A stretch of 64,000 nt of DNA. It comes from Vicinamibacteria bacterium (GTDB lineage: Bacteria; Acidobacteriota; Vicinamibacteria; Marinacidobacterales; Marinacidobacteraceae). The position numbers and the translations under genes are program-made. Below, piece after piece: positions 20,033 to 61,605 of this stretch. The notes under the pieces are model-generated. The model was not told the origin of the DNA. It did no database searches and worked only from the letters and a program-made list of their open reading frames with translations. The stretch covers positions 2,328,422-2,392,421 of the forward strand of contig OZ220470.1 of assembly GCA_965115855.1 (NCBI GenBank), read 5' to 3'. Each line of letters begins with the position of its first letter. Position 1 is the first letter of the stretch.

Positions 20033-23000
20033 TCACCAGCCGAGGGCGCCCTGGAGCGCGAGTCGCCGGTCCCGCGTTCCCATGACGCTCTCGCGCCGCG
20101 CCCCTTCGAGGTCCAGCCGGAAGAGCGGACCCAGCTGGTAGCGGGCGCCGAGCCGCAGGGCCCGGCCCATCTCCGCCATCTGGAGGCCCGCATACGGGGT
20201 CAGGACCCCGGCCAGGGGAAGCCCGAACCCGTGGCCGCCCTCCGCCGTCAGCCGCCGCTCCGCCCGCAACCCCGCCATCGGGGTCGGGGAGAACGCCGGG
20301 GTCCGGTCGAACATCTGCTGCAGGCCGCTCTCCGTGCCCCCCTGCGACGGCGCCACCTTCAGGAACGGACCCCGTCCCTCATCGCCGGGATCGAGGCTCA
20401 CCATCGCCCCCACGCCCCACTCACGGCGTTCCGTCTCGGCGTGCGTGACCAGCGCCCGGCTACGCACTTGCAATGTCAGTCCCGGGTCCCGCATCCGGTA
20501 CGCCACGCTTCCGCCGACCTCGACCCCCGCGCCCTCCACCGCGTCGCCCCGGTCGTACAGAACCCCCACCTCCAGCGCCGGCGTCAGCGTACCCGTGCCC
20601 AGCGTCCGCTCGTGCGAGCCTTCCAGCATCAACCGCAACCGGCTGGTGTGCGCCGTCAGGCCCTCGAGGCCCGACTCCGAGGCCGTGCTGAAGCGCGCGT
20701 ACGAACCCTCGCCCTTGACCGCCAGCCGGGTCATGCCCCCCGCCAGCAGATCCGCATCCCGGAACAGCACGCTCCGACCGCCCACCGCACCGCTCGCAAA
20801 CGACATCCCCGCGTCCCGCTTGTTCATTCCCGTCTCGGTCACTCGCACCTCGCCCCGACCGTAGCCCCCGCTCGCCCACAGGTTCGACCCGTCGGGCGCC
20901 AGCCACGCCAGGTAGGGGTGCGCCGAGGTCAGTCCCGCCTCGTAGATCCCGGCCACCGAACCGGTCTCGGCGGCGCCGCTCGCATCGAAGTCGCCGGTCG
21001 CGTGCGACACCACGATCCCCGCGAGGAAGTCCGAACCGATCCGCGCGTCCGCGCCCACGTGCGCGGACCACAGTCCCCCGTCCCACGAGACCTCACGGTC
21101 GGTCCCGGAAAGCGACAGCCGTCCGCCCCGGCCCCAGACGCCGATCGCCGGGAATCCGCCCTCCTCCTCTTCCTGGCCGAGCGTCATGCCGAACGCCGCC
21201 CCGTCCAGCACGTCGGCGAGCCGCAACGGCCGGTCGGTCCGCCCGCCGAATCCGGTCCGATCTCCTAACGCTCCCGTCCGGCCGTCGTGCCGCAGGTTGA
21301 GCACTCCTTCGGAAGAGGCGGACATCGGCATCGCGCCCAGCCGCAGCTCGCGCGACGCGAACCCCGCCGACACCGACTCGATCCGGTCGGCAACCGCCCC
21401 CAGCGTCTGCGTCGCGAACCCCGCCGCGAACTGCGGAAGGATCACCTCGTTCAACCGATTCGCACGACCCAGCGCCTCCGCCGACGTCGTGTTCCGCACC
21501 GTCACCGACACCGACTCCGCCGTCACCCCGCCGTAGTCCCCGCCGGACACCCGGTGGCTCACCGTCGCCCTCATGTCCGCCAGCGAGTCCTCGTCCTCCA
21601 CCCCGCTCACCGTCACCGTCTGCGGGGTGTCCCAGTTCGCGGCGGTAAAGGAGAGCGCCTCCGAGACCGTCGCCGCTCCCCCGTCGCTGCTCGCCGGGGT
21701 GACCGTCACCGGACCCGTCGGTTCGCTGGTGAGCACCACCGTGTAGGTCCCGCTTCCGTCCTCGTCCACCGTCAGTTCGGTCGGGGTCACCGTCACCCCC
21801 GCCTTGTCGTTGTCGGTCACCCGCACCGACACCGCATCGGCCTTCACCGAGTCGTAGTCCCCGCCCGAAACCTCGTGGGTCAGGGTCGCGGTATCCGCCA
21901 CCGCGTCGGCGTCCTCCGCCGCGCGGACCGTCACCGTCTGCGCCGTGTCCCAGTTCGCGGCGGTGAACCCGCGCGACGCCGGCGCCACCGTGATGTCCCC
22001 CGCCGCGCCAGCGATCGCCACCGTCACCTCCGCCGTCGGCTCGCTGGTCAGCGCCACCGTGTAGGTCCCGCTTCCCCCCTCGTCCACCATCAGTTCGGTC
22101 GGGGTCACCGCAACCCCCGCCTCGTCGTTCTCGGTCACCCGCACCGACACATCGGCGATCGAAACCGAACCGTAGCCCCCGCCCGACGCCTCGTGGGTCA
22201 AGGTGGCTGTGTCCGCCACCGCGTCGGCGTCCTCCGCCGCCCGGACCGTCACCGTCTGTGGCGTGTCCCAGTTCGCCGGGGTGAACGTCAACGACGACGG
22301 TGAAACCGTCACATCCCCGGACGCGCCCGACACCGTGATCGTGACGTTCCCCGAAGGACGCCGGTCCAGAACCACCGTGTAGACGGCGCCGCCGCCCTCC
22401 GACACCCGCAGCGTCGCCCGCGACACCGTCACGCCTTTCGTCCCCGTGGGAGTCGTCGAGCCGCCGCCGGAACCGCCACCACCTCCTCCGCCGCCACTGG
22501 CGGTCGGCGCCTGCGACGTCGCCGTTACCCGGATCACAATCTCCTCGGTGTCCGAGTTGCCGTTCCCGTCCGACGCCGTCACCTCCATCGTGTATGTCCC
22601 TACCGTTGTCGTCGTGAACATCAAACGCGCCTGGTTCAGCGCCGTGCCGCCGGGAATCGCCGGCGCCGTCTCGCCCGCCTTGCGCGTCCAGGCGTAGGTG
22701 ATCGGGTCGTTGTCCCCGTCCGTCGCCACCGCCGTGATGTCCACCGCCTGGCCGGCCTTCACTGTCCGGTTCGCGATCCCCGACAGCACCGGCGACTCGT
22801 CGTCATCCTCGATCGTCCCCGTCGCCGTCGCGTCCGTGATCGTCGTCCCCGCCGATGCATCGGACAGGGTCACCGTGAACGTCTCGTTGTTCTCGTCGAG
22901 ATCGTCGTTCGTCACCGACACCGTGACCGTCGCGCTGCCCGCGTTCGCCGCGACCGTCGCCGCGGTCGCCGGCGTCACCGCGGTGAAGTCCGTGCCCGCC

Positions 23001-24665
23001 GTCGCCGTGTCGCCGCTTTCCGCCGTCACCGTGTACTTGAACGACGCCTCCGACGAGGGCGCAGGAGAAGCCGTCACCGTGAACGTGAACGTCCCGCCCT
23101 CCGCCGCCGTCACGTCCCCGATGCTCAGCGAGGTCGGGACGTTCTTCAGCGTGCCGTCCGCCGTGCGGTCGGCCCCCCGCACATAGCCGGTCCCGTTGCG
23201 CAGGGTGATCCGGTAGGCCTCCGCGCCTTCCACCGTCGAGTCGAGGATCGTCGGGATCGTCACCGTCCCGGTCGTGCTCGCGGTGCTGCCGAAACTTGCG
23301 GTGAAGTTCCTCGGACCGAGCGAACCCCGTATGTCCGCCGCAGTGAAACCGTTCGAACTCCGCGCCGCCAGCCGCAGACGCACCTTCAGGTCTCCGGTCA
23401 GCGCCTTGTCCGACGTGACCGTCAGGCTGATCGCCGTCCCCTCGGTCACCGCCGCCGGATCATTCAGAAGCTGCAGGACCGGCGTCGTGTCGGTCACCGT
23501 CACGTCCACATCGTCGATACCGAGCTCGTTGCCGTAGTCGGCGTCGGAGCTCGCCGACGAATGCGTCAAGGTCGCCGTGTCGTCCTCCGCGTCCGCGTCC
23601 GTCCCCGCGTTCACCGTGATCGTCTGCGCCGTGTCCCAGTTGGATGTCGTGAAGGTCAGCGGCGAACCCGCCACCGTTACATCGCCCGACGCGCCGCCCA
23701 CCGTCACGGTCACGCTCGCCGAGGGTCTCCTGTTCAGCTTCACCGTATAGGTGTTGCTGCTCCCCTCTTCAACCGTCAGCGACGACGGCGAGATAGTCAC
23801 CCCGGCGGGAGGGTTCGGTGTCGCCGTCACCTCGTTGGACATGGGAGCAAGGATGGCGGTCGGGACACCCGGAGGGGGGGTGGTCGTGCGCCCGACCTGG
23901 AAGCTGTACGCGGTACCGTTGGTCAGACCCGTCACCGTGTGGGTTCGTTTTGTCTTCCCGCCGGGAATGTCGTACATGCTGCCGCTGCCCCCTCCGGCGC
24001 CTTTCTTCTGAAGGTACACCCAGGAGAGGAAGAACTCCGGGTCCGCATATGTCCAGTCAAGTCTCACCCGTCCGTCACCCGGCGTGGCGGAAAGGACGAT
24101 GGCGCTGGCCATCGGCGTCACGGTGACTGCATCCGAGACCACTCCGTAACCGACGTTGTTCACCGCGCGGATCTTGAAACTGTACGTTCTGCCGTTCCTC
24201 AGACCCGTCACCCGGTAACTCTCCGTCGTTGCGCTGGCCCCGGTCATGGTGATCCACGACCCGTAGCGCCCCGTGCCCGACTTCTGCCGGTAATCCCATC
24301 CGGTAATGCTGGGATCACTTGGAATCGCCCACGTCAACAATACGCTTCCAGAGCCCGGAGTGGCGCTGACTCTCGTTGGCTTGACAGGTACTTGCGCTTG
24401 CTGTCCGATGATACCGGCATCCCTCTGGTTGGTCCGAGCCAACCCGGCGGCGTTCCGTGCCCCCGCATCCGGCGCAAGGACGACGGCCAGCGAGATCGTA
24501 GTGAGTGCCGCGACTCGGCGGCGAGCGTTTCTTCTACCGGGCGCCCTCAGCCCCGCGTCTGGATTTCGGGGGGGGGGGGGGGGGTAGAGAGTCGCGTTGC
24601 GCCGGACCGAAACCAGCGGGGCCCAACACCCGCGTCACGCGCTGCGGCCTTGCTGTCACTTCCAT
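20033..24665 (-). CDS. large autotransporter (type Va) adhesin-like protein
   Basis: Built from FN3 domains, five ~100-aa passenger repeats and a C-terminal beta-barrel. The C-terminal ~300 aa match autotransporter beta-domain architecture and end in ...LALQGALGW. Passenger: 2 FN3 domains, then five repeats with signature NWDTxQTVTVxAxxDADxxDDTATLTH. A signal-peptide-like region RRRVAALTTISLAVVLAPDAGA lies upstream of the first annotated codon. The proposed true start is ATG 24665 with SD AGGAG 7 nt upstream, but it is out of frame at the current 17-nt homopolymer. Confidence 0.7.
24568..24584. repeat. G17 homopolymer (C17 on the coding strand) in the autotransporter leader
   Basis: Direct count of 17 consecutive G. 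The upstream ATG frame and the signal-peptide frame differ by 1 nt across the tract. Confidence 0.9.
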
Positions 24666-25159
24666 CACGAACTCCTGCGAATGGCCGAATAAAGGAGCAG
24701 GAACACTCCATCGGGGTTGGTGAACCACCCCAGGGGAATCACCGGTTTATGTAAAGGGGATTGTTTCCGAATCAGGAGTCGCAAATCAAGTGCGTGTATG
24801 AGCCCACGGGATATCCCGGTCGTTCACGACGAAAGGGGCCTCAACTCAATTTCGAGTGGATACGGGCGGGAAGCCCGTCGGGGGGCCGGGTGTCAAGGGC
24901 GGGCGTAGCCCGGCGGAGTGGACCCTTGACGCACGGACCCACGAGGGGCATGCTTGGTTCGGGTCGAAGGCAGCAGAATGCTGTTTTCGGCCCATCACTG
25001 CCTGGGAAACTCCTCATGGAGAACCAGATATTCGGAACCGCGCTCGGCTTGACGGGACTTTGGTTCGTCGAGGTTCCTCCCGCACCGTTTTCTTCCTCAT
25101 CTCCGGGAAATTCGACTTCCCAAGCTCAGCACCCATTTCGCCTAACCCACTCGAAATTC

Positions 25160-26598
25160 GGCTCTATTGAATTTCGAGTGGGTTATGCGAGGTGAGGGTT
25201 GAGCTTGGAGAAGTCGAGTTTTCCGGCGATAAGAAAGAAAACGGTGCGGATGGTGCGGAAGGAACGATACCCCCTGGCTTTCCGCTTGGCGGATTGGAAG
25301 AGGCCATTGAGGGCTTCTATGAACCCGTTGGTCTGGCGGGTTCGGGCCCACGCGGTGATGCCGTCGAAGTGTCTTCGGATCATCCGGGCGACGGCTTTCA
25401 TGGGTTCGATCCGGGATCGATTCACGTTGGTGCACCACTGCTGGAGCATGGCCCGCATGACATGGACTTGCTTGCGGTGGAGGATGGCACGGAGTTGCTC
25501 CCGGTACCGCCAAGCTCGAGTGGTGCGCTTCCCAGCGGTCTGTGCGATCAGCGCGTTGAGTGCGGCGCGTTGGTTACGGCTGAGGTGTGTCGGATTCTTG
25601 AGCAAGGTCCAGCGCATGCCCTTGATCCCCGGATCGACCCGCTGCTCGATGCGTCTGGTTTCGTCGAGGGCACTCGAGGCGTGGGCGACGACATGGAACT
25701 TGTCGAAAGTGATTTGGGCATGGGGCAAATGCTTCGCAACCCCCTTGATGAAAGCAGGGGACATGTCGATCGAGACGAACCGGATCGCTTCGGGAGCGCC
25801 ACCCTGTACCGCCAAGTTCCGGGCGAATTGTCCGACCGTGTCGGCCCCCCGGCCCTCCCCGACAAACAGCACCCGGCGCTTGCGGGCGTCGGCGGCAACG
25901 GTGACATAGGCGTGCCCCCGGGCCCGGGAGGTCTCGTCGATTGCGACGGCGCGAACGTCGCCCTGGTCGTCCTCCGCGGAGGCGAGTTCCACGTATTGGT
26001 TGCAGATGGTCTGAACCCGGTGTGGAGAAATCTTGTTCAACCGTGCGACCGCGGCGAAGGGCATTTCCCGACTCATGACGATCACCAACGCTTCGAAGAG
26101 CGCAGTGAACCCGGAGACCTGACCCGTCCAGGGCGTGGTGACCAGCGCGATCCGTCCGTCGGGCAGACGGACTCTCGGAACCCTCGCTACCACTTCGCAT
26201 TCATACTGGAAGAAGTTGAGGTGGCGATAGCGCTTGGTCTTGGTGTCGTGGATGGGGTGTGTACCTTCGTGGTCCTTGTGAGGAAAGCGGGCGCCACGCT
26301 GAAAGTCGATATGGATGATCAGCTTGCGATCACACTCGACAAACTTCACGCTTTCGACGAACCAAGGTTCGATGAGGCCAAGGGCGGTTGCGAAGATGCG
26401 GTGGATATCTGTCATGAGATGCTTCTCCTATGCAGAGATGGGCCGAAAAGCAGCATTCTGCCGCTTTTCGAGCCCGAACCAAGCATGCCCGTCGCGGGTC
26501 CGTGCGTCAAGGGTTCGCTCCGCCGGGCTACGCCCGCCCTTGACACCCGGCCCCCCGACGGGCTTCCCGCCCGTACCCACTCGAAATTGAGTTGAGGC
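25160..26598 (-). mobile_element. ISL3-family insertion sequence, copy 1 (1439 bp)
   Basis: Identical to the copy at 56000..57438. Imperfect ~24-bp terminal IRs (GGCTCTATTGAATTTCGAGTGGGT / GCCTCAACTCAATTTCGAGTGGGT). 8-bp TSD cgaaattc at 25152-25159 and 26599-26606. Confidence 0.85.
25183..26415 (-). CDS. ISL3-family transposase
   Basis: 410 aa, identical to the ORF at 56023..57255. Its conserved blocks match the ISL3 (IS1001/IS1096/IS1165-type) family. Confidence 0.85.
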   Translation of the reverse strand: MTDIHRIFATALGLIEPWFVESVKFVECDRKLIIHIDFQRGARFPHKDHEGTHPIHDTKTKRYRHLNFFQYECEVVARVPRVRLPDGRIALVTTPWTGQVSGFTALFEALVIVMSREMPFAAVARLNKISPHRVQTICNQYVELASAEDDQGDVRAVAIDETSRARGHAYVTVAADARKRRVLFVGEGRGADTVGQFARNLAVQGGAPEAIRFVSIDMSPAFIKGVAKHLPHAQITFDKFHVVAHASSALDETRRIEQRVDPGIKGMRWTLLKNPTHLSRNQRAALNALIAQTAGKRTTRAWRYREQLRAILHRKQVHVMRAMLQQWCTNVNRSRIEPMKAVARMIRRHFDGITAWARTRQTNGFIEALNGLFQSAKRKARGYRSFRTIRTVFFLIAGKLDFSKLNPHLA

Positions 26599-49437: not shown

Positions 49438-50229
49438 ATGAAGCTCGAGGGACGTGGAGTTCTCGTCACGGGCGGCGCCCGCGGCATGGGCCTGCTGCTC
49501 GCGCGCATGGCGCAGGAGCGCGGAGCCCGGGTGGCGATCTGGGATACCCACGACAGCGCCCTCGCTGCTGCCAGCGGGGAACTCGGCGGCGCGGTCGCTG
49601 CCGACGCGGTGGACGTTGGGTGTCCGGAAGCGGTGGGTCTCGCAGCCGAACGGCTTCCCTTCGCGGTGGACGTGCTCGTGAACAACGCCGGCGTGGTCTC
49701 CGGCAAGCGCTTCCCCGAGCTGACGCCGGAGGAGGTCCGCCGTACCCTGCGCGTGAATCTGGAAGCGTTGTTCTGGACTACCCGCGCGTTTCTTCCCGGC
49801 ATGGTGCGCCGTGGTGAGGGCCATCTCGTGACCATGGCCTCCGCCGGCGGTCTTGTCGGCGTCCCGGCGCTCTCCGACTACTGCGCGTCCAAGTTCGGAG
49901 CGGTCGGGTTCCACGAATCGGTTCGCGCCGAACTGCGGCACACGGCGCCCGGCATCGGGACCACCCTGGTGTGCCCCTTCTTCGTGAACACCGGAATGTT
50001 CGCGGGAGTGCGGACCCGGTTCCCGTTCCTGCTCCCGATTCTCGATCCGGGCGCGGTCGCCGCGGCGACTGTCCGCGCCATCGAGCGGAATCGGGCGACG
50101 GTGGTCCTCCCCTGGTTCGTCCACTCGCTCAAGCTGCTCCGGCTGCTGCCGTCGGCCTGGCTGGATCCGATCGCCGCCTTTTTCGGCATCCACGCTTCGA
50201 TGAGAAGCTTCACCGGCCGCCGACGTTGA
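49438..50229 (+). CDS. short-chain dehydrogenase/reductase (SDR)
   Basis: TGGARGMG cofactor motif, NNAG, and catalytic YxxxK (YCASK). Confidence 0.85.
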   Translation: MKLEGRGVLVTGGARGMGLLLARMAQERGARVAIWDTHDSALAAASGELGGAVAADAVDVGCPEAVGLAAERLPFAVDVLVNNAGVVSGKRFPELTPEEVRRTLRVNLEALFWTTRAFLPGMVRRGEGHLVTMASAGGLVGVPALSDYCASKFGAVGFHESVRAELRHTAPGIGTTLVCPFFVNTGMFAGVRTRFPFLLPILDPGAVAAATVRAIERNRATVVLPWFVHSLKLLRLLPSAWLDPIAAFFGIHASMRSFTGRRR

Positions 50230-50239
50230 CCGTTTGTAT

Positions 50240-50300
50240 CGAATTCGGTAAAAATTACCAACTTCAACTTCCCTGCAAAAGTTACCAACTTCCCTGGAGG
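50240..50300 (+). promoter_or_regulatory. AT-rich promoter-like region with direct repeats upstream of the lipoprotein gene
   Basis: aaaattaccaacttc(aacttc)cctg and aaaagttaccaacttccctg at 50250-50296; SD GGAGG 8 nt before ATG 50309. Local GC is far below the genome background. Confidence 0.4.
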
Positions 50301-50308
50301 TAATCACC

Positions 50309-51073
50309 ATGCGTTTCCTTTTCCGTGCAGGTCTCCTGTTCCTGCTGGCCGGAGCTTTCGCGCTTGCCGGATGCGGCGACGACGACGATCCGGTCACCCC
50401 GGCTCCGGCCCCCGCTCCGGCTCCGGCGCCAGCCCCGGCTCCGGCACCAGCGCCAGCCCCCGCTCCCGATGATCATGACCACGACGAGGAGATGGTGATG
50501 TACACGTTCGGCGAGCCCATGCGCAAGATCGGCCCCAGTGTCGAGGGCTCCCTTCCCGAAGGCACGAAATACGCCGGTTCGCTGGCCTTGGTCGCGCACT
50601 CCGCCGACTCGATGTTGTTCGAGAAGGGCGGCATGGCGTCAGCCGGGTTGAAGACGCTGGCCGAGACCGGGGATGCCACCGACTTCCTTGCCGAAGCCGA
50701 GGCGGCGGACGCCACCGTGATCGCCAGGACCCAGGCCGAGCTGCTCGCCTTGTTCCTCAAGGAGGATCCTTCCATCGAGGTTCATCACGACAAGCCGTGC
50801 CTCACCTATGCCCAGATGATGTCGCCGACTCCCGACTGGTTCATCGGGGTCTCCAAGTTCTGTCTGGTGGACGAGAACGACGAATGGATGGAGGAAGCGA
50901 CCTTCGATCTGGTCGTCTACGACGCCGGCACCATGGATGGGGACGAGTTCGTCAAGGGCATGGGCCCGGCGACCGACCCGCAGGGCATGATCGAGCACCT
51001 CAACCTGGATCCCTGGTTCAAGGCTCCGGCGGTCGCTCAGACGCACACCCTGATGCTCAAGCACGACCACTAG
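50309..51073 (+). CDS. lipoprotein with (PA)n linker and spondin_N-like domain
   Basis: Lipobox LALAGC, (PAPA)x12 linker, His/Asp-rich segment. C-terminal domain with DWFIGVSKFCL resembles spondin_N. Confidence 0.55.
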   Translation: MRFLFRAGLLFLLAGAFALAGCGDDDDPVTPAPAPAPAPAPAPAPAPAPAPAPDDHDHDEEMVMYTFGEPMRKIGPSVEGSLPEGTKYAGSLALVAHSADSMLFEKGGMASAGLKTLAETGDATDFLAEAEAADATVIARTQAELLALFLKEDPSIEVHHDKPCLTYAQMMSPTPDWFIGVSKFCLVDENDEWMEEATFDLVVYDAGTMDGDEFVKGMGPATDPQGMIEHLNLDPWFKAPAVAQTHTLMLKHDH

Positions 51074-54466: not shown

Positions 54467-55404
54467 TCCCCCGGCTGCTCGTCCTGTTGTTCGTCGCCGG
54501 TTGCGGTGGGCCGCTGCCGGTGTGGCTGGACGTGGATCCGGCGGTGATGCGCGGGGGCCATGAACCCGATGACGGGGTGGCGATGGTCCAGGCGTTCCAC
54601 TCCCCGGAGGTGGAAGTGGTGGGAGTCGGTGTGGCCTTCGGGAACGCGCCACTCCCGATCGGGCTTCCGATCGCCCGGCGCATCGCCGCCGAGTACGGCC
54701 CGCCCGGCCTCCCGGTTCACGAGGGCGCCGCCTCGCCGTCCGCGGATCCCACTCCGGCATCCCGGGCGCTCGCGGCCGCCCTTCGGGAACGCCGACTGAC
54801 GGTCCTGGTGCTGGGGCCGGCGACGAATCTCGCGGCCACTCTTCGCGCGGACCCCGGGTTGGCGAAGCGGCTCGAATCGGTCGTCCTGGTGGTCGGGCGG
54901 CGCGCAGGCGAGCCCTTGACCTTTCCCGGAGGCGGCCCGAATCTTCCCGACTTCAATTTCGAGCTGGATCCGGCCGCTGCGAAGCTGGTCCTGGCGAGCG
55001 GTGTCCCGATCACCCTGGCGCCCTTCGAGTTCGCGGTGCGCCTTCCCGTGACCGAAGCCGACTGGACCCGTCTGTGGAGTACTCCGTTCGCCCGCCTCTT
55101 TCGCGGGCCGATCGAGGACTACCTCGACTGGTTCGGGGAGAACCAGGGCCTGCGGGCCACCTACCCCTTCGATTCCTATGCGGTGGCATCGGTTGTCGCG
55201 CCCCACCTTCTCCGGTGCGATCCGGAGACCGTCGCGGTGCGCCCCGGTCCCGCCGACACTCCCACCGACGAGGGAGACACCAAGCCCTGGCTGATACCGG
55301 TTGCGTCCGGAGCGGGATGGCCGGTTACCTGGTGCCACACCCCGGATCCGGCGCTGCGGGACGACTTGCTCCGTCGGCTGGCGTCGCCTCGCATCGATCC
55401 TTGA
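54463..55404 (+). CDS. inosine-uridine preferring nucleoside hydrolase family lipoprotein
   Basis: DVDPAVMRGGHEPDDGVAMV plus the GN motif of IU nucleoside hydrolases; lipobox LFVAGC. Start codon unclear. Confidence 0.7.
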   Translation: MIPRLLVLLFVAGCGGPLPVWLDVDPAVMRGGHEPDDGVAMVQAFHSPEVEVVGVGVAFGNAPLPIGLPIARRIAAEYGPPGLPVHEGAASPSADPTPASRALAAALRERRLTVLVLGPATNLAATLRADPGLAKRLESVVLVVGRRAGEPLTFPGGGPNLPDFNFELDPAAAKLVLASGVPITLAPFEFAVRLPVTEADWTRLWSTPFARLFRGPIEDYLDWFGENQGLRATYPFDSYAVASVVAPHLLRCDPETVAVRPGPADTPTDEGDTKPWLIPVASGAGWPVTWCHTPDPALRDDLLRRLASPRIDP

Positions 55405-55999
55405 CCACGGGCTCTCAGAACGGTCGGAATTTCGAAACACCTCGATGGGATTTCCGTGTCTGCTTCGGAGTTCTTTCTTTTGAGTTTCGAATCGCTACTG
55501 AACATGTACTGAAACAGGACCCACAAACGCGCACTCTGAAATGCGAACGGCTTGGGTCAACCGAATCAATGTCATTGCTTTCCTTCGAGTTGGAGTTTCG
55601 TGCGCAAATATTCCATTCCTCTTGGACCCTTTATGCGGTTACAGCTCCCACATAGAAGTTGAAGATTTTCCAAGTGATCTGTCCCTCCGTATGCTCTTGC
55701 GATAATGTGGTCAATTTCGAGATTGCGCATCTCGAAGTGCACACCACAACCTTCGCAATCACCCTCTTGTTGTCCATAAAGAGTCGCCTTGTGGCAACTT
55801 GGAGGAGGGAGAGATCCCAAATCGGTTCTGAGCGGCACATCCGTTCTATGAGCGACTCTCCCGAAAACCTCACCCCGAGCCTTTATTCGTTCAACAACAA
55901 GGTCCCCTGCCTTGGGAGAAAGGTCTATCCCTGCCCATTTTCGAGCCAACTCGTTGGCAGCAACCATGGTCGTGGCACATCCACAGAATGGATCCAAAA

Positions 56000-57438
56000 G
56001 GCTCTATTGAATTTCGAGTGGGTTATGCGAGGTGAGGGTTGAGCTTGGAGAAGTCGAGTTTTCCGGCGATAAGAAAGAAAACGGTGCGGATGGTGCGGAA
56101 GGAACGATACCCCCTGGCTTTCCGCTTGGCGGATTGGAAGAGGCCATTGAGGGCTTCTATGAACCCGTTGGTCTGGCGGGTTCGGGCCCACGCGGTGATG
56201 CCGTCGAAGTGTCTTCGGATCATCCGGGCGACGGCTTTCATGGGTTCGATCCGGGATCGATTCACGTTGGTGCACCACTGCTGGAGCATGGCCCGCATGA
56301 CATGGACTTGCTTGCGGTGGAGGATGGCACGGAGTTGCTCCCGGTACCGCCAAGCTCGAGTGGTGCGCTTCCCAGCGGTCTGTGCGATCAGCGCGTTGAG
56401 TGCGGCGCGTTGGTTACGGCTGAGGTGTGTCGGATTCTTGAGCAAGGTCCAGCGCATGCCCTTGATCCCCGGATCGACCCGCTGCTCGATGCGTCTGGTT
56501 TCGTCGAGGGCACTCGAGGCGTGGGCGACGACATGGAACTTGTCGAAAGTGATTTGGGCATGGGGCAAATGCTTCGCAACCCCCTTGATGAAAGCAGGGG
56601 ACATGTCGATCGAGACGAACCGGATCGCTTCGGGAGCGCCACCCTGTACCGCCAAGTTCCGGGCGAATTGTCCGACCGTGTCGGCCCCCCGGCCCTCCCC
56701 GACAAACAGCACCCGGCGCTTGCGGGCGTCGGCGGCAACGGTGACATAGGCGTGCCCCCGGGCCCGGGAGGTCTCGTCGATTGCGACGGCGCGAACGTCG
56801 CCCTGGTCGTCCTCCGCGGAGGCGAGTTCCACGTATTGGTTGCAGATGGTCTGAACCCGGTGTGGAGAAATCTTGTTCAACCGTGCGACCGCGGCGAAGG
56901 GCATTTCCCGACTCATGACGATCACCAACGCTTCGAAGAGCGCAGTGAACCCGGAGACCTGACCCGTCCAGGGCGTGGTGACCAGCGCGATCCGTCCGTC
57001 GGGCAGACGGACTCTCGGAACCCTCGCTACCACTTCGCATTCATACTGGAAGAAGTTGAGGTGGCGATAGCGCTTGGTCTTGGTGTCGTGGATGGGGTGT
57101 GTACCTTCGTGGTCCTTGTGAGGAAAGCGGGCGCCACGCTGAAAGTCGATATGGATGATCAGCTTGCGATCACACTCGACAAACTTCACGCTTTCGACGA
57201 ACCAAGGTTCGATGAGGCCAAGGGCGGTTGCGAAGATGCGGTGGATATCTGTCATGAGATGCTTCTCCTATGCAGAGATGGGCCGAAAAGCAGCATTCTG
57301 CCGCTTTTCGAGCCCGAACCAAGCATGCCCGTCGCGGGTCCGTGCGTCAAGGGTTCGCTCCGCCGGGCTACGCCCGCCCTTGACACCCGGCCCCCCGACG
57401 GGCTTCCCGCCCGTACCCACTCGAAATTGAGTTGAGGC
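56000..57438 (-). mobile_element. ISL3-family insertion sequence, copy 2 (1439 bp), inserted in the MTase-HNH gene
   Basis: 100% identical to 25160..26598. 8-bp TSD atccaaaa at 55992-55999 and 57439-57446. The frame bookkeeping (1447 nt, congruent to 1 mod 3) fits the flanking ORF frames. Confidence 0.9.
56023..57255 (-). CDS. ISL3-family transposase (copy 2)
   Basis: Identical 410-aa ORF. Confidence 0.85.
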   Translation of the reverse strand: MTDIHRIFATALGLIEPWFVESVKFVECDRKLIIHIDFQRGARFPHKDHEGTHPIHDTKTKRYRHLNFFQYECEVVARVPRVRLPDGRIALVTTPWTGQVSGFTALFEALVIVMSREMPFAAVARLNKISPHRVQTICNQYVELASAEDDQGDVRAVAIDETSRARGHAYVTVAADARKRRVLFVGEGRGADTVGQFARNLAVQGGAPEAIRFVSIDMSPAFIKGVAKHLPHAQITFDKFHVVAHASSALDETRRIEQRVDPGIKGMRWTLLKNPTHLSRNQRAALNALIAQTAGKRTTRAWRYREQLRAILHRKQVHVMRAMLQQWCTNVNRSRIEPMKAVARMIRRHFDGITAWARTRQTNGFIEALNGLFQSAKRKARGYRSFRTIRTVFFLIAGKLDFSKLNPHLA

Positions 57439-57710
57439 ATCCAAAACAAGGTCGCCCACGTCGGATGTGGAACTGATGATCCGGTGCAGAAGCGCGAGCG
57501 GTTTCTGTGTCGGAAAGCCGGTACGCTCCTTGGAAGACCCGGGAATGATCGGAATATCCCATACATCTCGCATTGGCATTCCGAGTGATTTTTTGTCTCC
57601 CGTGATTTTCTTGGATTTGGTAATCGGATCGAGGATTTGCGACCTCCCCTTGAATACGCGAAGAGTGGACGTTGATAACTCCTCGTAGCCCTGATTCCAA
57701 GACCATCTTA

Positions 57711-57726
57711 CCCCCCCCCCCCCCCC
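57711..57726. repeat. C16 homopolymer (G16 in the mRNA; poly-Gly codons) inside the MTase-HNH reading frame
   Basis: Direct count of 16 C. The upstream and downstream MTase frames differ by 1 nt across the tract. Confidence 0.9.
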
Positions 57727-58548
57727 GTATACCAAAAGAGAACGTCGTGCATTCGCTGAAATCGGCGCTGCTTTGACGGCCACCGCTTGTACGACCATAT
57801 GATTTCGTTCTGGAATGCGTCTTTCCCAAATACTGAATCCATGACCATTTTCAGGGGATGACTCATCGTGGGGTCACAGTGAAGCCACACTGATCCTGTC
57901 GGTTTCAGTATTCTTCGAATTTCCAAAATGCGCGGCGCCATATAGGCGAGATAGGATTTGTCGCTATCTGTAATGGCTGCCAAGATAATCTTGTGGAGAG
58001 ATGGATGCTTGGCTTCAATTAGATTGACCCACTCAGCATCTACATCGGAGAGCGACCACGTATCTTTAAAAGCAGCCCCTGCTGCCGTAGAACCAATAGG
58101 TGCGGCGTAGTCGGACTCGGAGTTGAAAGGAGGATCCAAATAGATTAGATCCACTGACTCGGAATTCATGCCTCGCATAATTGGGAGGTTGTCTCCGGTC
58201 CATACAGTCTTGTCGGCCCAATTCGGTTTGCCCATATCGAGAGGATATAGGAAACCTCACGCCATCGACACGGCACTCACCGATGGCGGCGTTTACGCTG
58301 CCTGCGAAGGACTTCGTGGCGCACGCCAAAGTGGATCGTTTTGATCGACTGCGAGGAATCGGCCTGCCTGCATGGTCCGGCAAGGGGTCGGTCCGTGCGT
58401 GCGGGATCGCCACGAGGTCAAGCGGATCGACGAGGAACTTTACGTCGGAACCAGTCGGGCTTCCACGGTGCTCTCAATGGGCATAAGCTTCCTCCGTACG
58501 CGCCGGAACTGCGCAAGGAGGTCTCTTTTGGGAAGACGAACAGCGGGA

Positions 58549-60069
58549 ATGGACGGCGGCGTCCGGTGGCGCGCGCTCCCGGCGCTGGCGCTGGCCGGGG
58601 GGCTCCTGTCCGGAAGCTGCGGCAATCCCGCTCCGGAGCGGGCGCGGAATGTGATCCTCTTCATCGGGGACGGATTCGGCATGAGCCACCTGACGCTCGG
58701 TCTCGCCTACGCCGAGGAATTCGGGGCCGGTCCGCTCGCGCTGGCCGAACTTGCCGATGCGGGTCACGCGGGGTATTCCCTGCCGGCCCCCTACGGACAT
58801 CTGGTAACCGATTCGGCGGCTGCCGCGTCCCAGATGGCCACCGGACAGCCGATGCTGGCCGGCACGCTCAGCCAGGATGTCCGGACCGGCGAACCGGTGG
58901 AAACGGTGATGGAGTGGGCCTCCCGGCGCGGGGTCGCCACCGGGCTGGTCTCGAACATGAACCTGACTCATGCAACTCCCGCGGCGTTCACGGTGCACAC
59001 CAGCTCCCGCTACAACCCCGAACCCGGACTCGCCGACCAGCTCCTTGACGAACCCCGGGTGGATGTCCTGCTCGGCGGCGGCGGTCGGGTCATGGTCCCG
59101 GAGGGGAGCCGGGTCTCGGATCACATTTCCGGGATCGCGCCGGAGGCCGACGGCGACTCCCGCCGGACCGACGGGCGCAACCTGGTGGCCGAAGCCCGGG
59201 AGGCCGGATACGCGGTCTCCGGCAATCGTGGGGAGCTCCTGGCGGTCGCCGGCGCCGAGCGGTTGCTGGGAGTGTTCGCAAGTGGCCATCTCCCCTATGT
59301 GCTGGACCGTTCGTGGAACGGCCTTGATGACACGATCCCCTCGCTCGCCGACCTGACCGGGGCGGCTCTTGCCTCGCTTGCGCCGGCGGCGGGCGGGTTC
59401 CTCCTGGTGGTCGAGGGAGGCCGCATCGACTACGCCGGACATGACAACGACGCCGGAGCGATGCTGGCCGAGATTCTCGACTTCGACCGGGCAATTCGGG
59501 TCGCCGGCGACTTCGCGCGGGAGCGCGGCGACACCCTCGTCCTGGTGACCGCCGACCACGGAACCGGCGGGTTCTCCTTCACCTATGCCGGCGGGGAACC
59601 GGCGCCGGTCCCGGAAGCGGTGTCTTGGGACTATGCGGGAGCCTTCCGGGGGCCGGCCCTCGGAACCCGCCGGCACCTCGAACTCGTCGGCGCGGCGCGG
59701 CGATCCCTCATCGAGACCCTGCAGGAGATGGATCGGCCGTTCCTCGCCCCGGAGCTCGGAGACGCGCTCGAAGTTGCCACCGGGATTCGCCTGTCCGGGG
59801 AAGAGACGGCCGACCTCGCAGCCCATCTCAACGAGGACCCCCCGGCGCCACGCGACTTCGAGGAGTTCTATCTGGACGCATCCTCGGTTCCGATGGCGCT
59901 GGTCGCCCGGAAGCTGGCCCGCCATACCCAGGTCACCTGGTCCACCGGGGGCCACACCACGGAGCCGGTGGTGCTCATCGGATACGGACCCGGGTCGGAA
60001 GGCGTCCTCGGGATCGGTCGAAATACGCGCATTTTCGAGATTGTGCAGAGAGCACTGGGTGGGGAGTGA
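58549..60069 (+). CDS. alkaline phosphatase (PhoA family) lipoprotein
   Basis: Lipobox LLSGSC. Alkaline phosphatase blocks (FIGDGFG, the active-site Ser region DSAAAAS, VEGGRIDYAGHDND, TADHGTGG). Confidence 0.85.
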   Translation: MDGGVRWRALPALALAGGLLSGSCGNPAPERARNVILFIGDGFGMSHLTLGLAYAEEFGAGPLALAELADAGHAGYSLPAPYGHLVTDSAAAASQMATGQPMLAGTLSQDVRTGEPVETVMEWASRRGVATGLVSNMNLTHATPAAFTVHTSSRYNPEPGLADQLLDEPRVDVLLGGGGRVMVPEGSRVSDHISGIAPEADGDSRRTDGRNLVAEAREAGYAVSGNRGELLAVAGAERLLGVFASGHLPYVLDRSWNGLDDTIPSLADLTGAALASLAPAAGGFLLVVEGGRIDYAGHDNDAGAMLAEILDFDRAIRVAGDFARERGDTLVLVTADHGTGGFSFTYAGGEPAPVPEAVSWDYAGAFRGPALGTRRHLELVGAARRSLIETLQEMDRPFLAPELGDALEVATGIRLSGEETADLAAHLNEDPPAPRDFEEFYLDASSVPMALVARKLARHTQVTWSTGGHTTEPVVLIGYGPGSEGVLGIGRNTRIFEIVQRALGGE

Positions 60070-60104
60070 CGCCGAGGCTGCTAGACTGCGCCATCCGGCT
60101 GGGA

Positions 60105-60180
60105 GCGCCTGTAGCTCAGTGGATAGAGCGCTTGCCTCCGGAGCAAGAAGTCAGAGGTTCGAGTCCTCTCAGGCGTACCA
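60105..60180 (+). tRNA. tRNA-Arg (anticodon CCG), CCA encoded
   Basis: Acceptor GCGCCTG/CAGGCGT, D-arm TAGCTCAGTGGATAGAGC, anticodon stem CTTGC/GCAAG with loop CTCCGGA, T-loop GGTTCGAGTCC. Confidence 0.85.
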
Positions 60181-60196
60181 GTGTTTTCCGCGGGGC

Positions 60197-60270
<74 letters not shown>

Positions 60271-60288
60271 CCCCAGACTGGGACTTCG

Positions 60289-61605
60289 ATGCCCGATTCC
60301 CCGCCCGTCGGCGGCCTCGATGGGGCTTCCCGCCCCCGCGTCTCCCGCCGCATCCTGATCCGGTCCCCGGAGGTCCGGATCAAGGGCCGCAATCGGCCCC
60401 GGTTCCGCGAGGCGCTGAAACGGAACATCCGGGAGCGTCTCGGCGGAATCGGCCTCGACTGGCGCGTGCGTTCGCTGCGCGACCGGGTCTGGATCGACGT
60501 GCCGGGGGAACAGACGGACGGCATCGGGCGGGCACTCGATGCACTCGAGACCGTTTTCGGCGTGGAACTGGCCCTGCCCGGGGTTGCGATTCCGCGCGTC
60601 GAAGGGGAGGAGGAGCGCCTCCTCCCGCATCTTCTCGACGTGGCGTGCGCACTCGCGGAGGCTGCTCCTCCCGACCGGCCGGACGCCGGTTTCGCGGTGC
60701 GGGTGCGGCGTCGCGATCCGGCCTTTCCCCTCCGTTCGCAGGGAATCGCGGAAGCGCTCGGCAAGGGAATCCTCGAGCGGACCGGCTGGCGCCGGGTGAA
60801 CCTCTCCGATCCGGCCCTTGTCGTGCGCGTCGACAATTACGAGGACGTCTGCTGCCTTTCGACCGAGCGGCGCCGCGGCCCCGGCGGACTCCCGGTCGGG
60901 GTCGCGGGACGCTTTCTGGCCCTTCTTTCCGGTGGTTTCGACTCCCCGGTGGCCGCCTGGCTGCTCGCGGGTCGGGGAGCGCAGATGGATTTCCTCCACG
61001 TGGCGCCGGGTCATCCCCACCCCGATGATCCTTCGGTGATCAAGGCCTGCCGTCTGGCCGCTGCGCTTTCCCGATACACCGGAACCTCCCGGCTGGTACT
61101 GGTTCCCTTCACCCGCCTCGACCTGGAACTCGCCGGTTCGCGAACCGGCTACGAGGCGCTGCTGTTCCGTCGCTTTGCCCTCCGCTGCGGGGAGGAGGCC
61201 GCGTCCCGTTTCGACGCGTCGGCTCTCGTGACCGGGGACAGTCTCTCGCAGGTCGCCTCGCAGACCATCGAAAATCTGATCGCCGTGGATGCGGCGGTAT
61301 CGCTTCCGGTGCTGCGGCCGCTGATCGGACTCGACAAGGCGTCAATCATGGCGCGGGCCGCCGGGATCGGAACCAGGGACATCTCGGTCGAGCCGGCCAA
61401 GGACTGCTGCGCCCTGATCGCCCGGTCGCCCCGGACCCGGTCGCGACCCGGCGGGCTCCAGTCGCTGGAACAACGCCTGTTGCCCGGACTGGACGATCTG
61501 CTCGCCGCCTCGCTGCGCGAATCGGTCGTGGCCACGTTCGCGTGGGGCGACGGTGACGGAGCGCTTCGGCCGCTCCCCGACGGCGCCCCGGCGTTGCTAC
61601 CATGA
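60289..61605 (+). CDS. thiI: tRNA 4-thiouridine(8) synthase ThiI (THUMP plus PP-loop ATPase)
   Basis: PP-loop SGGFDSPVAAW; THUMP-like N-terminal region. Confidence 0.8.
   Translation: MPDSPPVGGLDGASRPRVSRRILIRSPEVRIKGRNRPRFREALKRNIRERLGGIGLDWRVRSLRDRVWIDVPGEQTDGIGRALDALETVFGVELALPGVAIPRVEGEEERLLPHLLDVACALAEAAPPDRPDAGFAVRVRRRDPAFPLRSQGIAEALGKGILERTGWRRVNLSDPALVVRVDNYEDVCCLSTERRRGPGGLPVGVAGRFLALLSGGFDSPVAAWLLAGRGAQMDFLHVAPGHPHPDDPSVIKACRLAAALSRYTGTSRLVLVPFTRLDLELAGSRTGYEALLFRRFALRCGEEAASRFDASALVTGDSLSQVASQTIENLIAVDAAVSLPVLRPLIGLDKASIMARAAGIGTRDISVEPAKDCCALIARSPRTRSRPGGLQSLEQRLLPGLDDLLAASLRESVVATFAWGDGDGALRPLPDGAPALLP

What the first reader, a model, noticed from the sequence alone, without database searches (positions are those of the whole stretch)
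55410..58400. Low-GC island encoding an MTase fused to an HNH nuclease, inactivated twice (IS insertion plus homopolymer frameshift)
Between the nucleoside hydrolase gene and the alkaline phosphatase gene the GC content drops sharply (55410-55990 looks under 50% GC against ~70% background). The island carries one gene: a beta-class N4C/N6A MTase (DPPF ... FPTQKP ... DPFCGCATT) with a C-terminal HNH domain (CEGCG-x13-HIIARAYGG-x9-CGSCN), about 405 aa when reconstructed. ISL3 copy 2 sits exactly between GDLVL(D) and (D)PFCG with TSD atccaaaa. A single-polypeptide MTase-HNH is a phage/MGE-type module, possibly a solitary methylase with nicking or homing nuclease, or a compact modification-restriction protein. 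No cognate specificity or second gene is present. Silencing by both IS and homopolymer suggests the active protein is costly.
Basis: partly seen in the sequence, partly recalled or inferred. Interest (0 to 1): 0.6.

Follow-up and report, generated by a model that had tools for sequence, protein, structure and literature searches.

The report
Switchable methylase-nuclease gene, killed by IS
The island holds a dead copy of a one-protein DNA methylase-plus-nuclease gene; the run of 16 G's is not random decay but an on/off switch found across this uncharacterised family, which is common in sponge-symbiont bacteria and often carried by IS1595 transposons.

Summary
A minus-strand gene (58235..55572) in a 50%-GC island (flanks 69%) encodes a beta-class N6/N4 DNA methyltransferase fused to a C-terminal HNH nuclease. 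It is split by a 1,439-bp ISL3 element (56000..57438, 8-bp duplication ATCCAAAA). A G16 run (57711..57726) also puts it out of frame. Removing the IS and setting the run to G14 or G17 gives a collinear 404/405-aa protein.

The interpretation needs revising. The fusion is a large unnamed family, nearly all ~400 aa, whose closest genomes are sponge-symbiont MAGs. In 25 of 83 related genome loci a G or C run of 9-19 nt sits in or at the gene, a 68-fold enrichment over flanks (p=7e-22). These runs occupy several independent positions, including the window's loop. In-frame and out-of-frame states both occur. One allele with identical flanks carries G10, G11 or G13 in different assemblies. The G16 run is therefore the OFF state of a phase-variation switch; only the IS is a hard knockout.

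Relatives are often cargo of ~2.5-kb IS1595 transposons with inverted repeats and 8-bp duplications. The window copy has no transposase.

Restriction-modification function is inferred, not shown. This is a new variant of a known kind: a phase-variable single-chain R-M enzyme.

The parts
57727..58235 (-). 5' piece of the MTase-HNH gene (codons 1-170). It contains catalytic motif IV, DPPF, at 58125-58136.
   Evidence: ORF 58235..57708; Pfam N6_N4_Mtase starts at aa 28; D34 P35 P36 F37 are invariant in 28 homologues.
57711..57726 (-). Homopolymer: G16 on the coding strand (C16 on +). This is the phase-variation tract, here in an OFF length. The gene is in frame with 14 or 17 G. With 16 G a TAA stop follows directly.
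   Evidence: The same loop carries G15 in L001 and L005 and G12 in L004.
57439..57710 (-). Middle piece of the gene: the variable target-recognition region, FPTQKP, up to GDLVLD. It includes the right copy of the target-site duplication (57439-57446).
   Evidence: Frame bookkeeping; alignment to homologues.
56000..57438 (-). ISL3-family insertion sequence, 1,439 bp. Transposase gene 57255..56023; terminal inverted repeats 56000-56023 and 57415-57438.
   Evidence: an identical second copy is at 25160..26598.
55992..55999 (.). Left copy of the 8-bp target-site duplication ATCCAAAA. On the coding strand it reads TTTTGGAT, codons L265-D266 at the start of AdoMet-binding motif I.
55572..55999 (-). 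3' piece of the gene. It holds motif I, DPFCGCATT (55968-55994), the conserved linker, the HNH domain (55623-55757; C345, C348, D360, H361, N375, C380, C383, N384) and the stop codon at 55572-55574.
   Evidence: All listed residues are invariant in the alignment.
55405..55571 (-). Low-GC 3' tail of the island. It abuts the stop codon of the nucleoside hydrolase gene (55404). No inverted repeat or IS1595 end was recognised.
58236..58258 (-). Short low-GC leader upstream of the ATG. Host-like GC resumes by about 58260, so the island is essentially the gene alone.
25160..26598 (-). Sister copy of the same ISL3 element, 100% identical, with duplication CGAAATTC. It shows the IS is recently active in this genome.

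Best explanation
The island is a horizontally acquired single gene for a roughly 405-aa enzyme. A beta-class N6-adenine/N4-cytosine DNA methyltransferase, with its own variable target-recognition region, is fused through a conserved linker to a zinc-ribbon HNH nuclease.

The protein most likely acts as a compact, one-polypeptide restriction-modification enzyme. One recognition module would direct either methylation of the host's sites or HNH cutting near unmodified sites on incoming DNA.

Expression is gated by slipped-strand mispairing in a poly-G tract placed in a tolerant loop after the HDxxxxY strand. In this allele, tracts of 14, 17 and so on are ON. The 16 G seen here is OFF and gives a 175-aa stump that lacks the recognition region, the AdoMet motif and the nuclease.

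In relatives the gene is usually cargo of an IS1595-family transposon. The window copy has lost, or never had, the transposase and the transposon ends. A recently active ISL3 element has also landed in the AdoMet-binding motif, turning a reversible OFF state into a permanent knockout.

Shown: domains, collinearity, IS anatomy, family-wide tracts, tract-length polymorphism, the transposon vehicle. Inferred: nuclease and methylase activity, the restriction role, and switching in this particular strain.
For: Domains and intact catalytic residues. The MTase part aligns to CcrM and M.RsrI; the HNH part to Cas9/IscB-type HNH.

Reconstruction.

Family: the top 120 of at least 8,000 hits all have both domains at about 400 aa.

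Tracts:
- 26 G/C runs of 9 nt or more lie in 110 kb of gene zones, against 3 in 859 kb of flanks. That is 68-fold, binomial p=7e-22.
- They sit at the N-terminus, loop A (the window's site), loop B and the recognition region. In metagenomes, frameshifts fall exactly at tracts at three further sites.
- For N-terminal tracts, an ATG 6-30 nt upstream is in frame in some loci and out of frame in about 12.
- One allele with identical flanks has G10 (out of frame), G11 (in frame, twice), G13 (out of frame) and a contig ending inside the run.
- L007 (G13) and L008 (G12) are 90% identical genes in ON and OFF states.

Transposon vehicle:
- An IS1595 or IS1-like transposase is adjacent in 33 of 83 loci.
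- Perfect or near-perfect inverted repeats starting GGGAATTATATAC, with 8-bp duplications, enclose transposase plus MTase-HNH.
- Tract presence correlates with an adjacent transposase: 21/27 against 12/56, p=2e-6.

Arms-race signature: homologues share their conserved ends but differ in the central recognition region. Tandem paralogues occur. One homologue sits next to AbiE and Gabija-like genes.

Recent IS activity: two 100% identical copies.
Against: - No biochemical or methylome data exist for any member, so cleavage of unmodified DNA is an inference from architecture.
- In a fused enzyme the balance between self-methylation and self-cutting is unexplained.
- Tract-length variation was shown for other alleles, not the window's own. 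A pattern scan for this allele in JGI metagenomes found nothing, and exact look-ups of window proteins failed.
- Long homopolymers are error-prone in assemblies, so the exact length 16, and individual ON/OFF calls elsewhere, may be off by one.
- Most homologues (58 of 83) have no tract of 9 nt or more, so switching is a feature of sub-lineages, mainly the transposon-borne ones.
- The window copy differs from the family consensus at nine columns that are at least 90% conserved, for example Y127P and Y241F. That could mean relaxed constraint before the IS hit.
Confidence: 0.7

Rival explanations
1. Plain pseudogene decay. The gene was already useless to this host, and a chance indel in a Gly-coding G-run plus an IS hit are two unrelated lesions. 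The run has no switching role.
For: The window copy has no transposase or partner, carries nine substitutions at highly conserved columns, and is also hit by an IS. No length variation could be shown for this allele.
Against: Runs of 12-16 G at exactly this loop recur in L001, L004 and L005. Runs are 68-fold enriched in the family and are polymorphic between identical alleles. Apart from the two lesions the ORF is full length, with every invariant residue intact.
Confidence: 0.1
2. Assembly artefact at the homopolymer. The true tract is 17 (or 14) G, the gene was in frame, and the IS is the only inactivating event.
For: Homopolymers of 16 are miscalled by one base in most sequencing chemistries. 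The source contig is 3.0 Mb, which suggests a long-read assembly. One base more restores the frame.
Against: Nothing in the sequence can decide this. Out-of-frame states are common in relatives from several technologies. Either way the tract exists and the family-level conclusion is unchanged.
Confidence: 0.15
3. Epigenetic regulator (phasevarion) rather than a defence enzyme. ON/OFF switching of the methylase re-programmes host gene expression, and the HNH domain has a minor or different role.
For: Phase-variable methyltransferases of Type I, III and IIG systems control regulons in host-adapted bacteria (PMC5909438, PMC7383803, PMC4889913). The MTase part resembles Type III Mod and CcrM. The same window has a second long run next to a large surface-protein gene, as expected in an organism that uses contingency loci.
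Against: HNH catalytic and zinc ligands are invariant across the family, so nuclease activity is under selection. Recognition regions are shuffled and paralogues are multiplied, as in defence genes. The gene moves on transposons between phyla, which fits poorly with a tuned regulon. The two roles are not exclusive.
Confidence: 0.2
4. Mobility module. The HNH domain nicks or cuts DNA to promote spread of the gene or its transposon (homing-like), while the methylase protects occupied genomes. Defence is incidental.
For: - The gene occurs as a lone insertion between phage structural genes and as a lone gene at a synteny breakpoint in the window.
- Homology between close relatives begins at the tract.
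- Very similar genes occur across many phyla.
- The HNH type is that of Cas9, IscB and group II intron proteins.
Against: IS1595 elements have their own DDE transposase, and clean 8-bp duplications explain their movement. No conserved insertion site or flanking homology was found. A variable recognition region is not expected of a homing enzyme tied to one site.
Confidence: 0.1

Closest known systems
Phase-variable Type IIG restriction-modification enzyme Cj0031 of Campylobacter jejuni (PMC4889913)
   Same: One polypeptide combines nuclease, methyltransferase and specificity. A poly-G tract inside the ORF switches it ON and OFF by slipped-strand mispairing.
   Different: From my own knowledge, Type IIG enzymes are about 1,000-1,300 aa, with an N-terminal PD-(D/E)XK nuclease and a gamma-class MTase. 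Here a 400-aa protein has an N-terminal beta-class MTase and a C-terminal HNH. The gene is transposon cargo in environmental symbionts, and its activity is untested.
Phase-variable Type III mod genes and their phasevarions (PMC5909438)
   Same: Both involve a beta-class N6-adenine MTase fold with a central variable recognition region. PADLOC MTase_III models hit, as do the EcoP15I and Mod structures. Simple repeats in the ORF give ON/OFF switching, and recognition regions are swapped between alleles.
   Different: Type III systems have a separate Res helicase-nuclease subunit and often use tetra- or pentanucleotide repeats. Here the nuclease is a fused HNH and no res gene is adjacent.
Solitary beta-class MTases CcrM and M.RsrI (PDB 6pbd, 1eg2)
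   Same: These are the best structural relatives of residues 1-305. They share the motif order: DPPY/F first, FxGxG-like last.
   Different: They have no nuclease domain and no tract.
IS1595-family insertion sequences that carry passenger genes (own knowledge: Siguier, Gagnevin and Chandler 2009, not retrievable here)
   Same: Relatives sit inside units that have a zinc-ribbon plus DDE_Tnp_IS1595 transposase, terminal inverted repeats and 8-bp AT-rich duplications.
   Different: I found no report of an MTase-HNH passenger with a homopolymer switch. The window copy lacks both the transposase and the ends.
HNH-type Type II restriction endonucleases (KpnI, Hpy99I, PacI; PMC4081073)
   Same: They share the beta-beta-alpha-metal catalytic core with CxxC...CxxC zinc ligands.
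   Different: Those are separate proteins with a separate methylase. Here the HNH has no DNA-recognition domain of its own and would have to borrow that of the MTase.

Membership tests
Beta-class N6A/N4C DNA methyltransferase (Pfam PF01555) | Profile match above the gathering score | tested here: met
   157.6 bits against a cut-off of 26.7, aa 28-296.
Beta-class N6A/N4C DNA methyltransferase (Pfam PF01555) | Circular permutation: catalytic (D/S)PP(Y/F) motif N-terminal, AdoMet-binding motif C-terminal, recognition region between them | tested here: met
   DPPF is at aa 34-37 and DPFCGCATT at 266-274, with a variable stretch at about aa 170-235.
Beta-class N6A/N4C DNA methyltransferase (Pfam PF01555) | Methyl transfer to adenine N6 or cytosine N4, and which of the two | not testable with these tools
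   DPPF does not decide the base. This needs a methylome or an enzyme assay.
HNH nuclease (Pfam PF01844 / PF14279) | Profile match, together with the catalytic D-H, the Asn residues and four Cys zinc ligands | tested here: met
   50.4 bits against a cut-off of 21.4. C345, C348, D360, H361, N375, C380, C383 and N384 are invariant in 28 sequences.
Single-polypeptide (Type IIC/IIG-like) restriction-modification enzyme | Nuclease, MTase and recognition region in one chain | tested here: met
Single-polypeptide (Type IIC/IIG-like) restriction-modification enzyme | MmeI/Cj0031-type layout: N-terminal PD-(D/E)XK nuclease and gamma-class MTase | tested here: not met
   The MTase is beta-class and N-terminal; the nuclease is HNH and C-terminal. 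It may work like these enzymes but is not a member of that lineage.
Single-polypeptide (Type IIC/IIG-like) restriction-modification enzyme | Cleaves unmodified DNA at or near its site and is blocked by its own methylation | not testable with these tools
   No member has been characterised, and none was found in the literature searches.
Contingency (phase-variable) locus | Simple-sequence tract inside the ORF or at its 5' end whose length sets the reading frame | tested here: met
   G16 lies inside the ORF; 14 or 17 G restore the frame.
Contingency (phase-variable) locus | Tract is a recurrent, non-random feature of the gene family | tested here: met
   68-fold enrichment, p=7e-22, at several independent positions.
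Contingency (phase-variable) locus | Length polymorphism between otherwise identical alleles, with both ON and OFF states | tested here: met
   Shown for a relative's allele: G10, G11, G13 with identical flanks. It was not shown for the window's own allele (one search found nothing).
Contingency (phase-variable) locus | Reversible switching at high rate within one clonal population | not testable with these tools
   Needs read-level data or culture.
ISL3-family insertion sequence (the interrupting element) | DDE_Tnp_ISL3 transposase, terminal inverted repeats, 8-bp duplication | tested here: met
   Pfam 1e-66 and NCBIfam ISL3 300.9 bits against a cut-off of 180. Inverted repeats match at 20 of 24 positions. 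Duplications are ATCCAAAA here and CGAAATTC at the other copy.
IS1595-family transposon cargo (for the window copy) | Adjacent IS1595 transposase and GGGAATTATATAC-type inverted repeats around the gene | tested here: not met
   The window has no IS1595 hit and no repeat motif at the island edges. The feature is met in relatives L047, L070 and L072, among others.

The most novel reading that the evidence does not exclude
MTase-HNH fusions are a major, so far unrecognised class of phase-variable, one-protein restriction-modification enzymes. They spread on IS1595 transposons, and occasionally on phages, through many bacterial phyla living in sponges. Homopolymer switches give dense symbiont populations a bet-hedged mosaic of methylation and restriction states against the heavy viral load of a filter feeder. 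That would make contingency loci a general feature of animal symbionts, not only of pathogens. The tracts also lie at the borders of the conserved catalytic module, so they may additionally act as joints for swapping recognition regions.
Probability: 0.35. Interest if true: 0.75.

Novelty: new variant of a known kind. Interest (0 to 1): 0.6.

Why it matters
Phase-variable restriction-modification has been studied almost only in host-adapted pathogens such as Haemophilus, Neisseria, Helicobacter and Campylobacter. Here the same logic appears in an uncharacterised 400-aa enzyme architecture found in hundreds of uncultured species, mostly sponge symbionts, and it rides on transposons.

If confirmed, this would have four consequences:
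- It adds a compact new enzyme type to the restriction-enzyme repertoire, with a beta-class MTase borrowing its recognition module for an HNH cutter.
- It explains many 'frameshifted' or 'partial' methylase calls in MAG annotations.
- It offers a mechanism for strain-level methylome heterogeneity in sponge microbiomes, which are already known to be enriched in R-M genes (PMC5649159, PMC11410982).
- It is directly testable by re-reading existing HiFi data, using tract-length spectra and kinetic methylation signals.

The window's own copy is of limited interest in itself, because it is a dead gene.

Tried and rejected
- Exact-sequence look-ups of window proteins found nothing on record: the 175-aa stump, the ISL3 transposase, and the 100%-identical hydrolase P0121. 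I could not fetch the source contig or sister strains.
- Cluster look-ups gave no organism names.
- A pattern scan of JGI metagenomes for the window allele with any tract length gave 0 hits.
- No clean empty site was found. The nearest relative (70% identical hydrolase) has ThiI plus three small genes between the hydrolase and the phosphatase, and the window has ThiI-like DNA beyond the tRNAs. The island therefore sits at a rearrangement.
- I searched the island edges for the IS1595 repeat motif, for any inverted or direct repeats, and for similarity to relatives' flanks. Nothing beyond chance turned up.
- The AlphaFold2 model from the 28-sequence alignment had pLDDT below 50 across the HNH domain. 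I ran no fold search and draw no structural conclusions.
- Cultured phage and plasmid collections gave only MTase-domain hits below 47% identity and no full-length fusion.
- Literature searches for an MTase-HNH fusion, for phase variation in sponge symbionts, and for IS1595 passengers of this kind found no description.
- I first took L007 and L008 to be from different phyla. The taxonomy look-up shows both are Acidimicrobiia.
Full report
**Observation**

Between the nucleoside hydrolase gene (stop at 55404) and the alkaline phosphatase gene (from about 58372), GC falls from about 0.69 to 0.46-0.53. On the minus strand there are three ORF pieces:
- 58235..57708, ending FWYTGGGGG and then a stop.
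- A second-frame piece running through FPTQKP to GDLVLD.
- 55997..55572, starting DPFCGCATT and ending with a CxxC...DH...N...CxxCN block.

A 1,439-bp element sits at 56000..57438, between two copies of ATCCAAAA (55992-55999 and 57439-57446). Its ends are inverted repeats matching at 20 of 24 positions. It encodes a 410-aa ISL3 transposase (Pfam DDE_Tnp_ISL3 1e-66; NCBIfam ISL3 300.9 bits against a cut-off of 180). A 100% identical copy lies at 25160..26598.

Deleting the element and one repeat copy joins pieces two and three in frame. Changing the C16 run at 57711..57726 (G16 on the coding strand) to 14 or 17 joins pieces one and two. The result is a 404 or 405-aa protein that aligns end to end with homologues. 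Pfam gives N6_N4_Mtase at 6e-46 (aa 28-296) and HNH at 2.4e-13 (aa 345-389).

**What the protein is**

- Residues 1-305 are a beta-class MTase. The catalytic DPPF motif is at aa 34-37, and the AdoMet motif DPFCGCATT is at aa 266-274. The nearest solved structures are CcrM, M.RsrI and Type III Mod subunits. PADLOC Type II and Type III MTase models also hit.
- Residues 306-340 are a conserved linker (HRTDxPxRTDLGxLP...LYGxQ).
- Residues 341-395 are a zinc-ribbon HNH of the Cas9/IscB/group II intron kind.

In an alignment with 27 homologues, every catalytic or zinc-binding residue of both domains is invariant, including in the window copy. Apart from the IS and the tract length, the gene has no other lesion. 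It does differ from the consensus at nine columns that are at least 90% conserved.

**The family**

A search of 5.8 billion proteins returned the maximum of 8,000 hits. The best 120 all carry both domains at about 400 aa, and the best is 69% identical. Where a source names them at all, they are called 'DNA methyltransferase' or 'hypothetical protein'.

Family-specific peptides matched as follows:

| Collection | Stretches encoding a relative |
|---|---|
| GTDB species representatives | at least 595 |
| JGI metagenomes | 483 |
| IMG/VR viral contigs | 24, only 2 of them full-length |
| Cultured phages and plasmids | no full-length fusion |

The 80 best genome loci are almost all MAGs of lineages known from marine sponges. 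They include Poribacteria, Dehalococcoidia and other Chloroflexota, Acidimicrobiia, Ca. Poriferisocius, Poriferihabitaceae, Porisulfidus, Marinacidobacterales, Rhodothermales and Latescibacterota. Papers confirm that several of these names come from sponge holobiont sequencing.

The window's host is probably an Acidobacteriota bacterium. The flanking hydrolase is 100% identical to a protein on a 3.02-Mb contig, and its nearest named relatives are Acidobacteria MAGs.

**The homopolymer is a switch, not a scar**

The second-best homologue (P0002, 68% identity) has G15 at exactly the same loop. P0082 (49%) has G12 there, and L005 (65%) has G15.

Across 83 non-redundant genome loci:
- 26 G or C runs of 9 nt or more lie within the 110 kb of gene zones, against 3 in 859 kb of flanks. 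That is 68-fold, binomial p=7e-22.
- In most of the 13-kb loci, the run at this gene is the only such run.

The runs occupy at least four independent places. The commonest, in about 19 loci, is directly after the start codon and before the conserved PNW/NF..TIWTGDN. The others are loop A (the window's site), loop B after NEIxWxY, and the recognition region. In the metagenome set, frameshifts fall exactly at G9-G11 runs at three further positions.

For the N-terminal runs, an ATG lies 6-30 nt upstream. It is in frame in L007, L066/L067, L072 and L076, and out of frame in about a dozen others.

The most direct evidence comes from one allele found in five assemblies. Its flanks are identical over about 150 nt, yet it carries G11 (twice, in frame), G10 and G13 (both out of frame), and one contig that breaks inside the run. 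L007 (G13, ON) and L008 (G12, OFF) are 90% identical genes from two Acidimicrobiia.

This is the signature of a contingency locus. The window's G16 is therefore best read as the OFF setting, one slip from G17. Two caveats apply:
- I could not show length variation for the window's own allele.
- Lengths of long homopolymers in assemblies can be wrong by a base.

**Vehicle**

In 27 of 83 loci an IS1595-family transposase (zinc ribbon plus DDE_Tnp_IS1595) lies directly beside the gene. In 6 more an IS1-like transposase does.

In L047, L070, L072, L053 and L028, inverted repeats beginning GGGAATTATATAC enclose transposase plus MTase-HNH as a unit of about 2.5-2.6 kb. Perfect 8-bp duplications flank the units: ATTTTTTT, TTAAGAAA and TTATTTTA. 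The two closest relatives of the window gene (P0001, P0002) are also next to IS1595 transposase genes. P0004 and P0060 sit in phage-like contigs.

Tract-bearing copies are mainly the transposon-borne ones: 21 of 27, against 12 of 56 tract-less copies (Fisher p=2e-6).

The window copy has no IS1595 transposase, no such repeat and no recognisable ends. The foreign DNA is essentially the gene plus a 167-nt tail. It lies at a synteny breakpoint relative to the nearest available genome.

**Likely mechanism**

One variable recognition region serves two catalytic domains. The simplest reading is a single-chain restriction-modification enzyme that works like Type IIG/IIC enzymes but is built from different parts. 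Four observations support a defence role:
- The central region is shuffled between alleles whose N- and C-terminal parts stay 80-94% identical.
- Paralogues occur in tandem.
- One copy sits beside AbiE and Gabija-like genes.
- The nuclease residues are invariant.

Phase variation would let a transposon-borne, potentially self-damaging enzyme be carried silently. It would also diversify methylation states in a clonal symbiont population. Activity, target, cut position and the way self-cutting is avoided are all untested.

The rivals each remain possible at 0.1-0.2: pure decay, an assembly error in the run length, a mainly regulatory 'phasevarion' role, and an HNH that serves mobility.

**Comparison with known systems and novelty**

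Phase-variable Type I, III and IIG systems are well described (PMC5909438, PMC7383803, PMC4889913), and sponge symbionts are known to be rich in R-M genes (PMC5649159, PMC11410982). In the searchable literature I found no description of a beta-MTase-HNH fusion family, of homopolymer switches in sponge symbionts, or of this IS1595 cargo.

I therefore rate it a new variant of a known kind. The layout tested does not fit the MmeI/Cj0031 lineage: the MTase is beta-class rather than gamma-class, and the nuclease is HNH rather than PD-(D/E)XK. I say it 'works like' these enzymes, not that it 'is a member'.

**Verdict**

The reading of 'two inactivations' should be replaced by 'a switch in the OFF position plus one IS knockout'. 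The more interesting result lies outside the window: a widespread, transposon-borne, phase-variable enzyme family. Interest is 0.6.

Noticed in passing
window 24568-24584 (with ORF 20033..24442, minus strand): This is the window's only other very long homopolymer: G17 on +, C17 on the coding strand. It lies about 125 nt upstream of the listed start of a 1,469-aa surface protein with fn3, Calx-beta, PKD and Ig-like domains. An upstream ATG reads through the run and stops 12 codons later. A one-base change would fuse it to the frame carrying a signal-peptide-like stretch and the large ORF. It looks like a second contingency locus.
   Followed up: partly
window 24838-25071 and 25160-26598: The first ISL3 copy (duplication CGAAATTC) is inserted into the terminal repeat of an older, 86%-identical remnant of the same kind of IS, so the two are nested.
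   Followed up: partly
window 55405-61605 compared with L085 4076-12326: In the nearest available relative the gene order is acyl-CoA dehydrogenase, nucleoside hydrolase, ThiI, three small ORFs, alkaline phosphatase. In the window, ThiI-like DNA (60346-61451) lies beyond the phosphatase and two tRNA genes (Arg-CCG and Lys-CTT, 60105-60272). The island therefore marks a local rearrangement.
   Followed up: partly
L015 1-92: The 5' leader of this Gammaproteobacteria homologue holds three long runs within 90 nt: G10, G10 and C19.
   Followed up: no
L014, L020 (3327-4511 and 6001-7191), L021, L030, L034: Two or three different MTase-HNH paralogues lie within a few kb of each other in single genomes.
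   Followed up: no
L066 and L067 (same chromosome OZ219787.1); L045; L019: Three signs point to a repeated, mobile unit. Two 99.9% identical copies, each with an IS1-like transposase, lie 770 kb apart in one chromosome. A 2,175-bp contig has 322x coverage in a bin whose other contig is at about 15x. A 2,769-bp record consists only of MTase-HNH plus an IS1595 transposase.
   Followed up: partly
L007/L008/L026 5' ends; window 57711 compared with L001 2868: Nucleotide similarity between related genes starts or stops at the homopolymer. L026 has poly-C where its 84%-identical relatives have poly-G. The tracts coincide with the borders of the conserved N-terminal module.
   Followed up: no
L004 4346-11228: The homologue with G12 sits next to AbiEi/AbiEii and an OLD-TOPRIM ATPase plus UvrD helicase pair (Gabija-like). 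This is a defence island.
   Followed up: no
window 50100-50400: Another short GC dip (0.55-0.57, against about 0.69) lies upstream of the region studied. I did not examine it.
   Followed up: no
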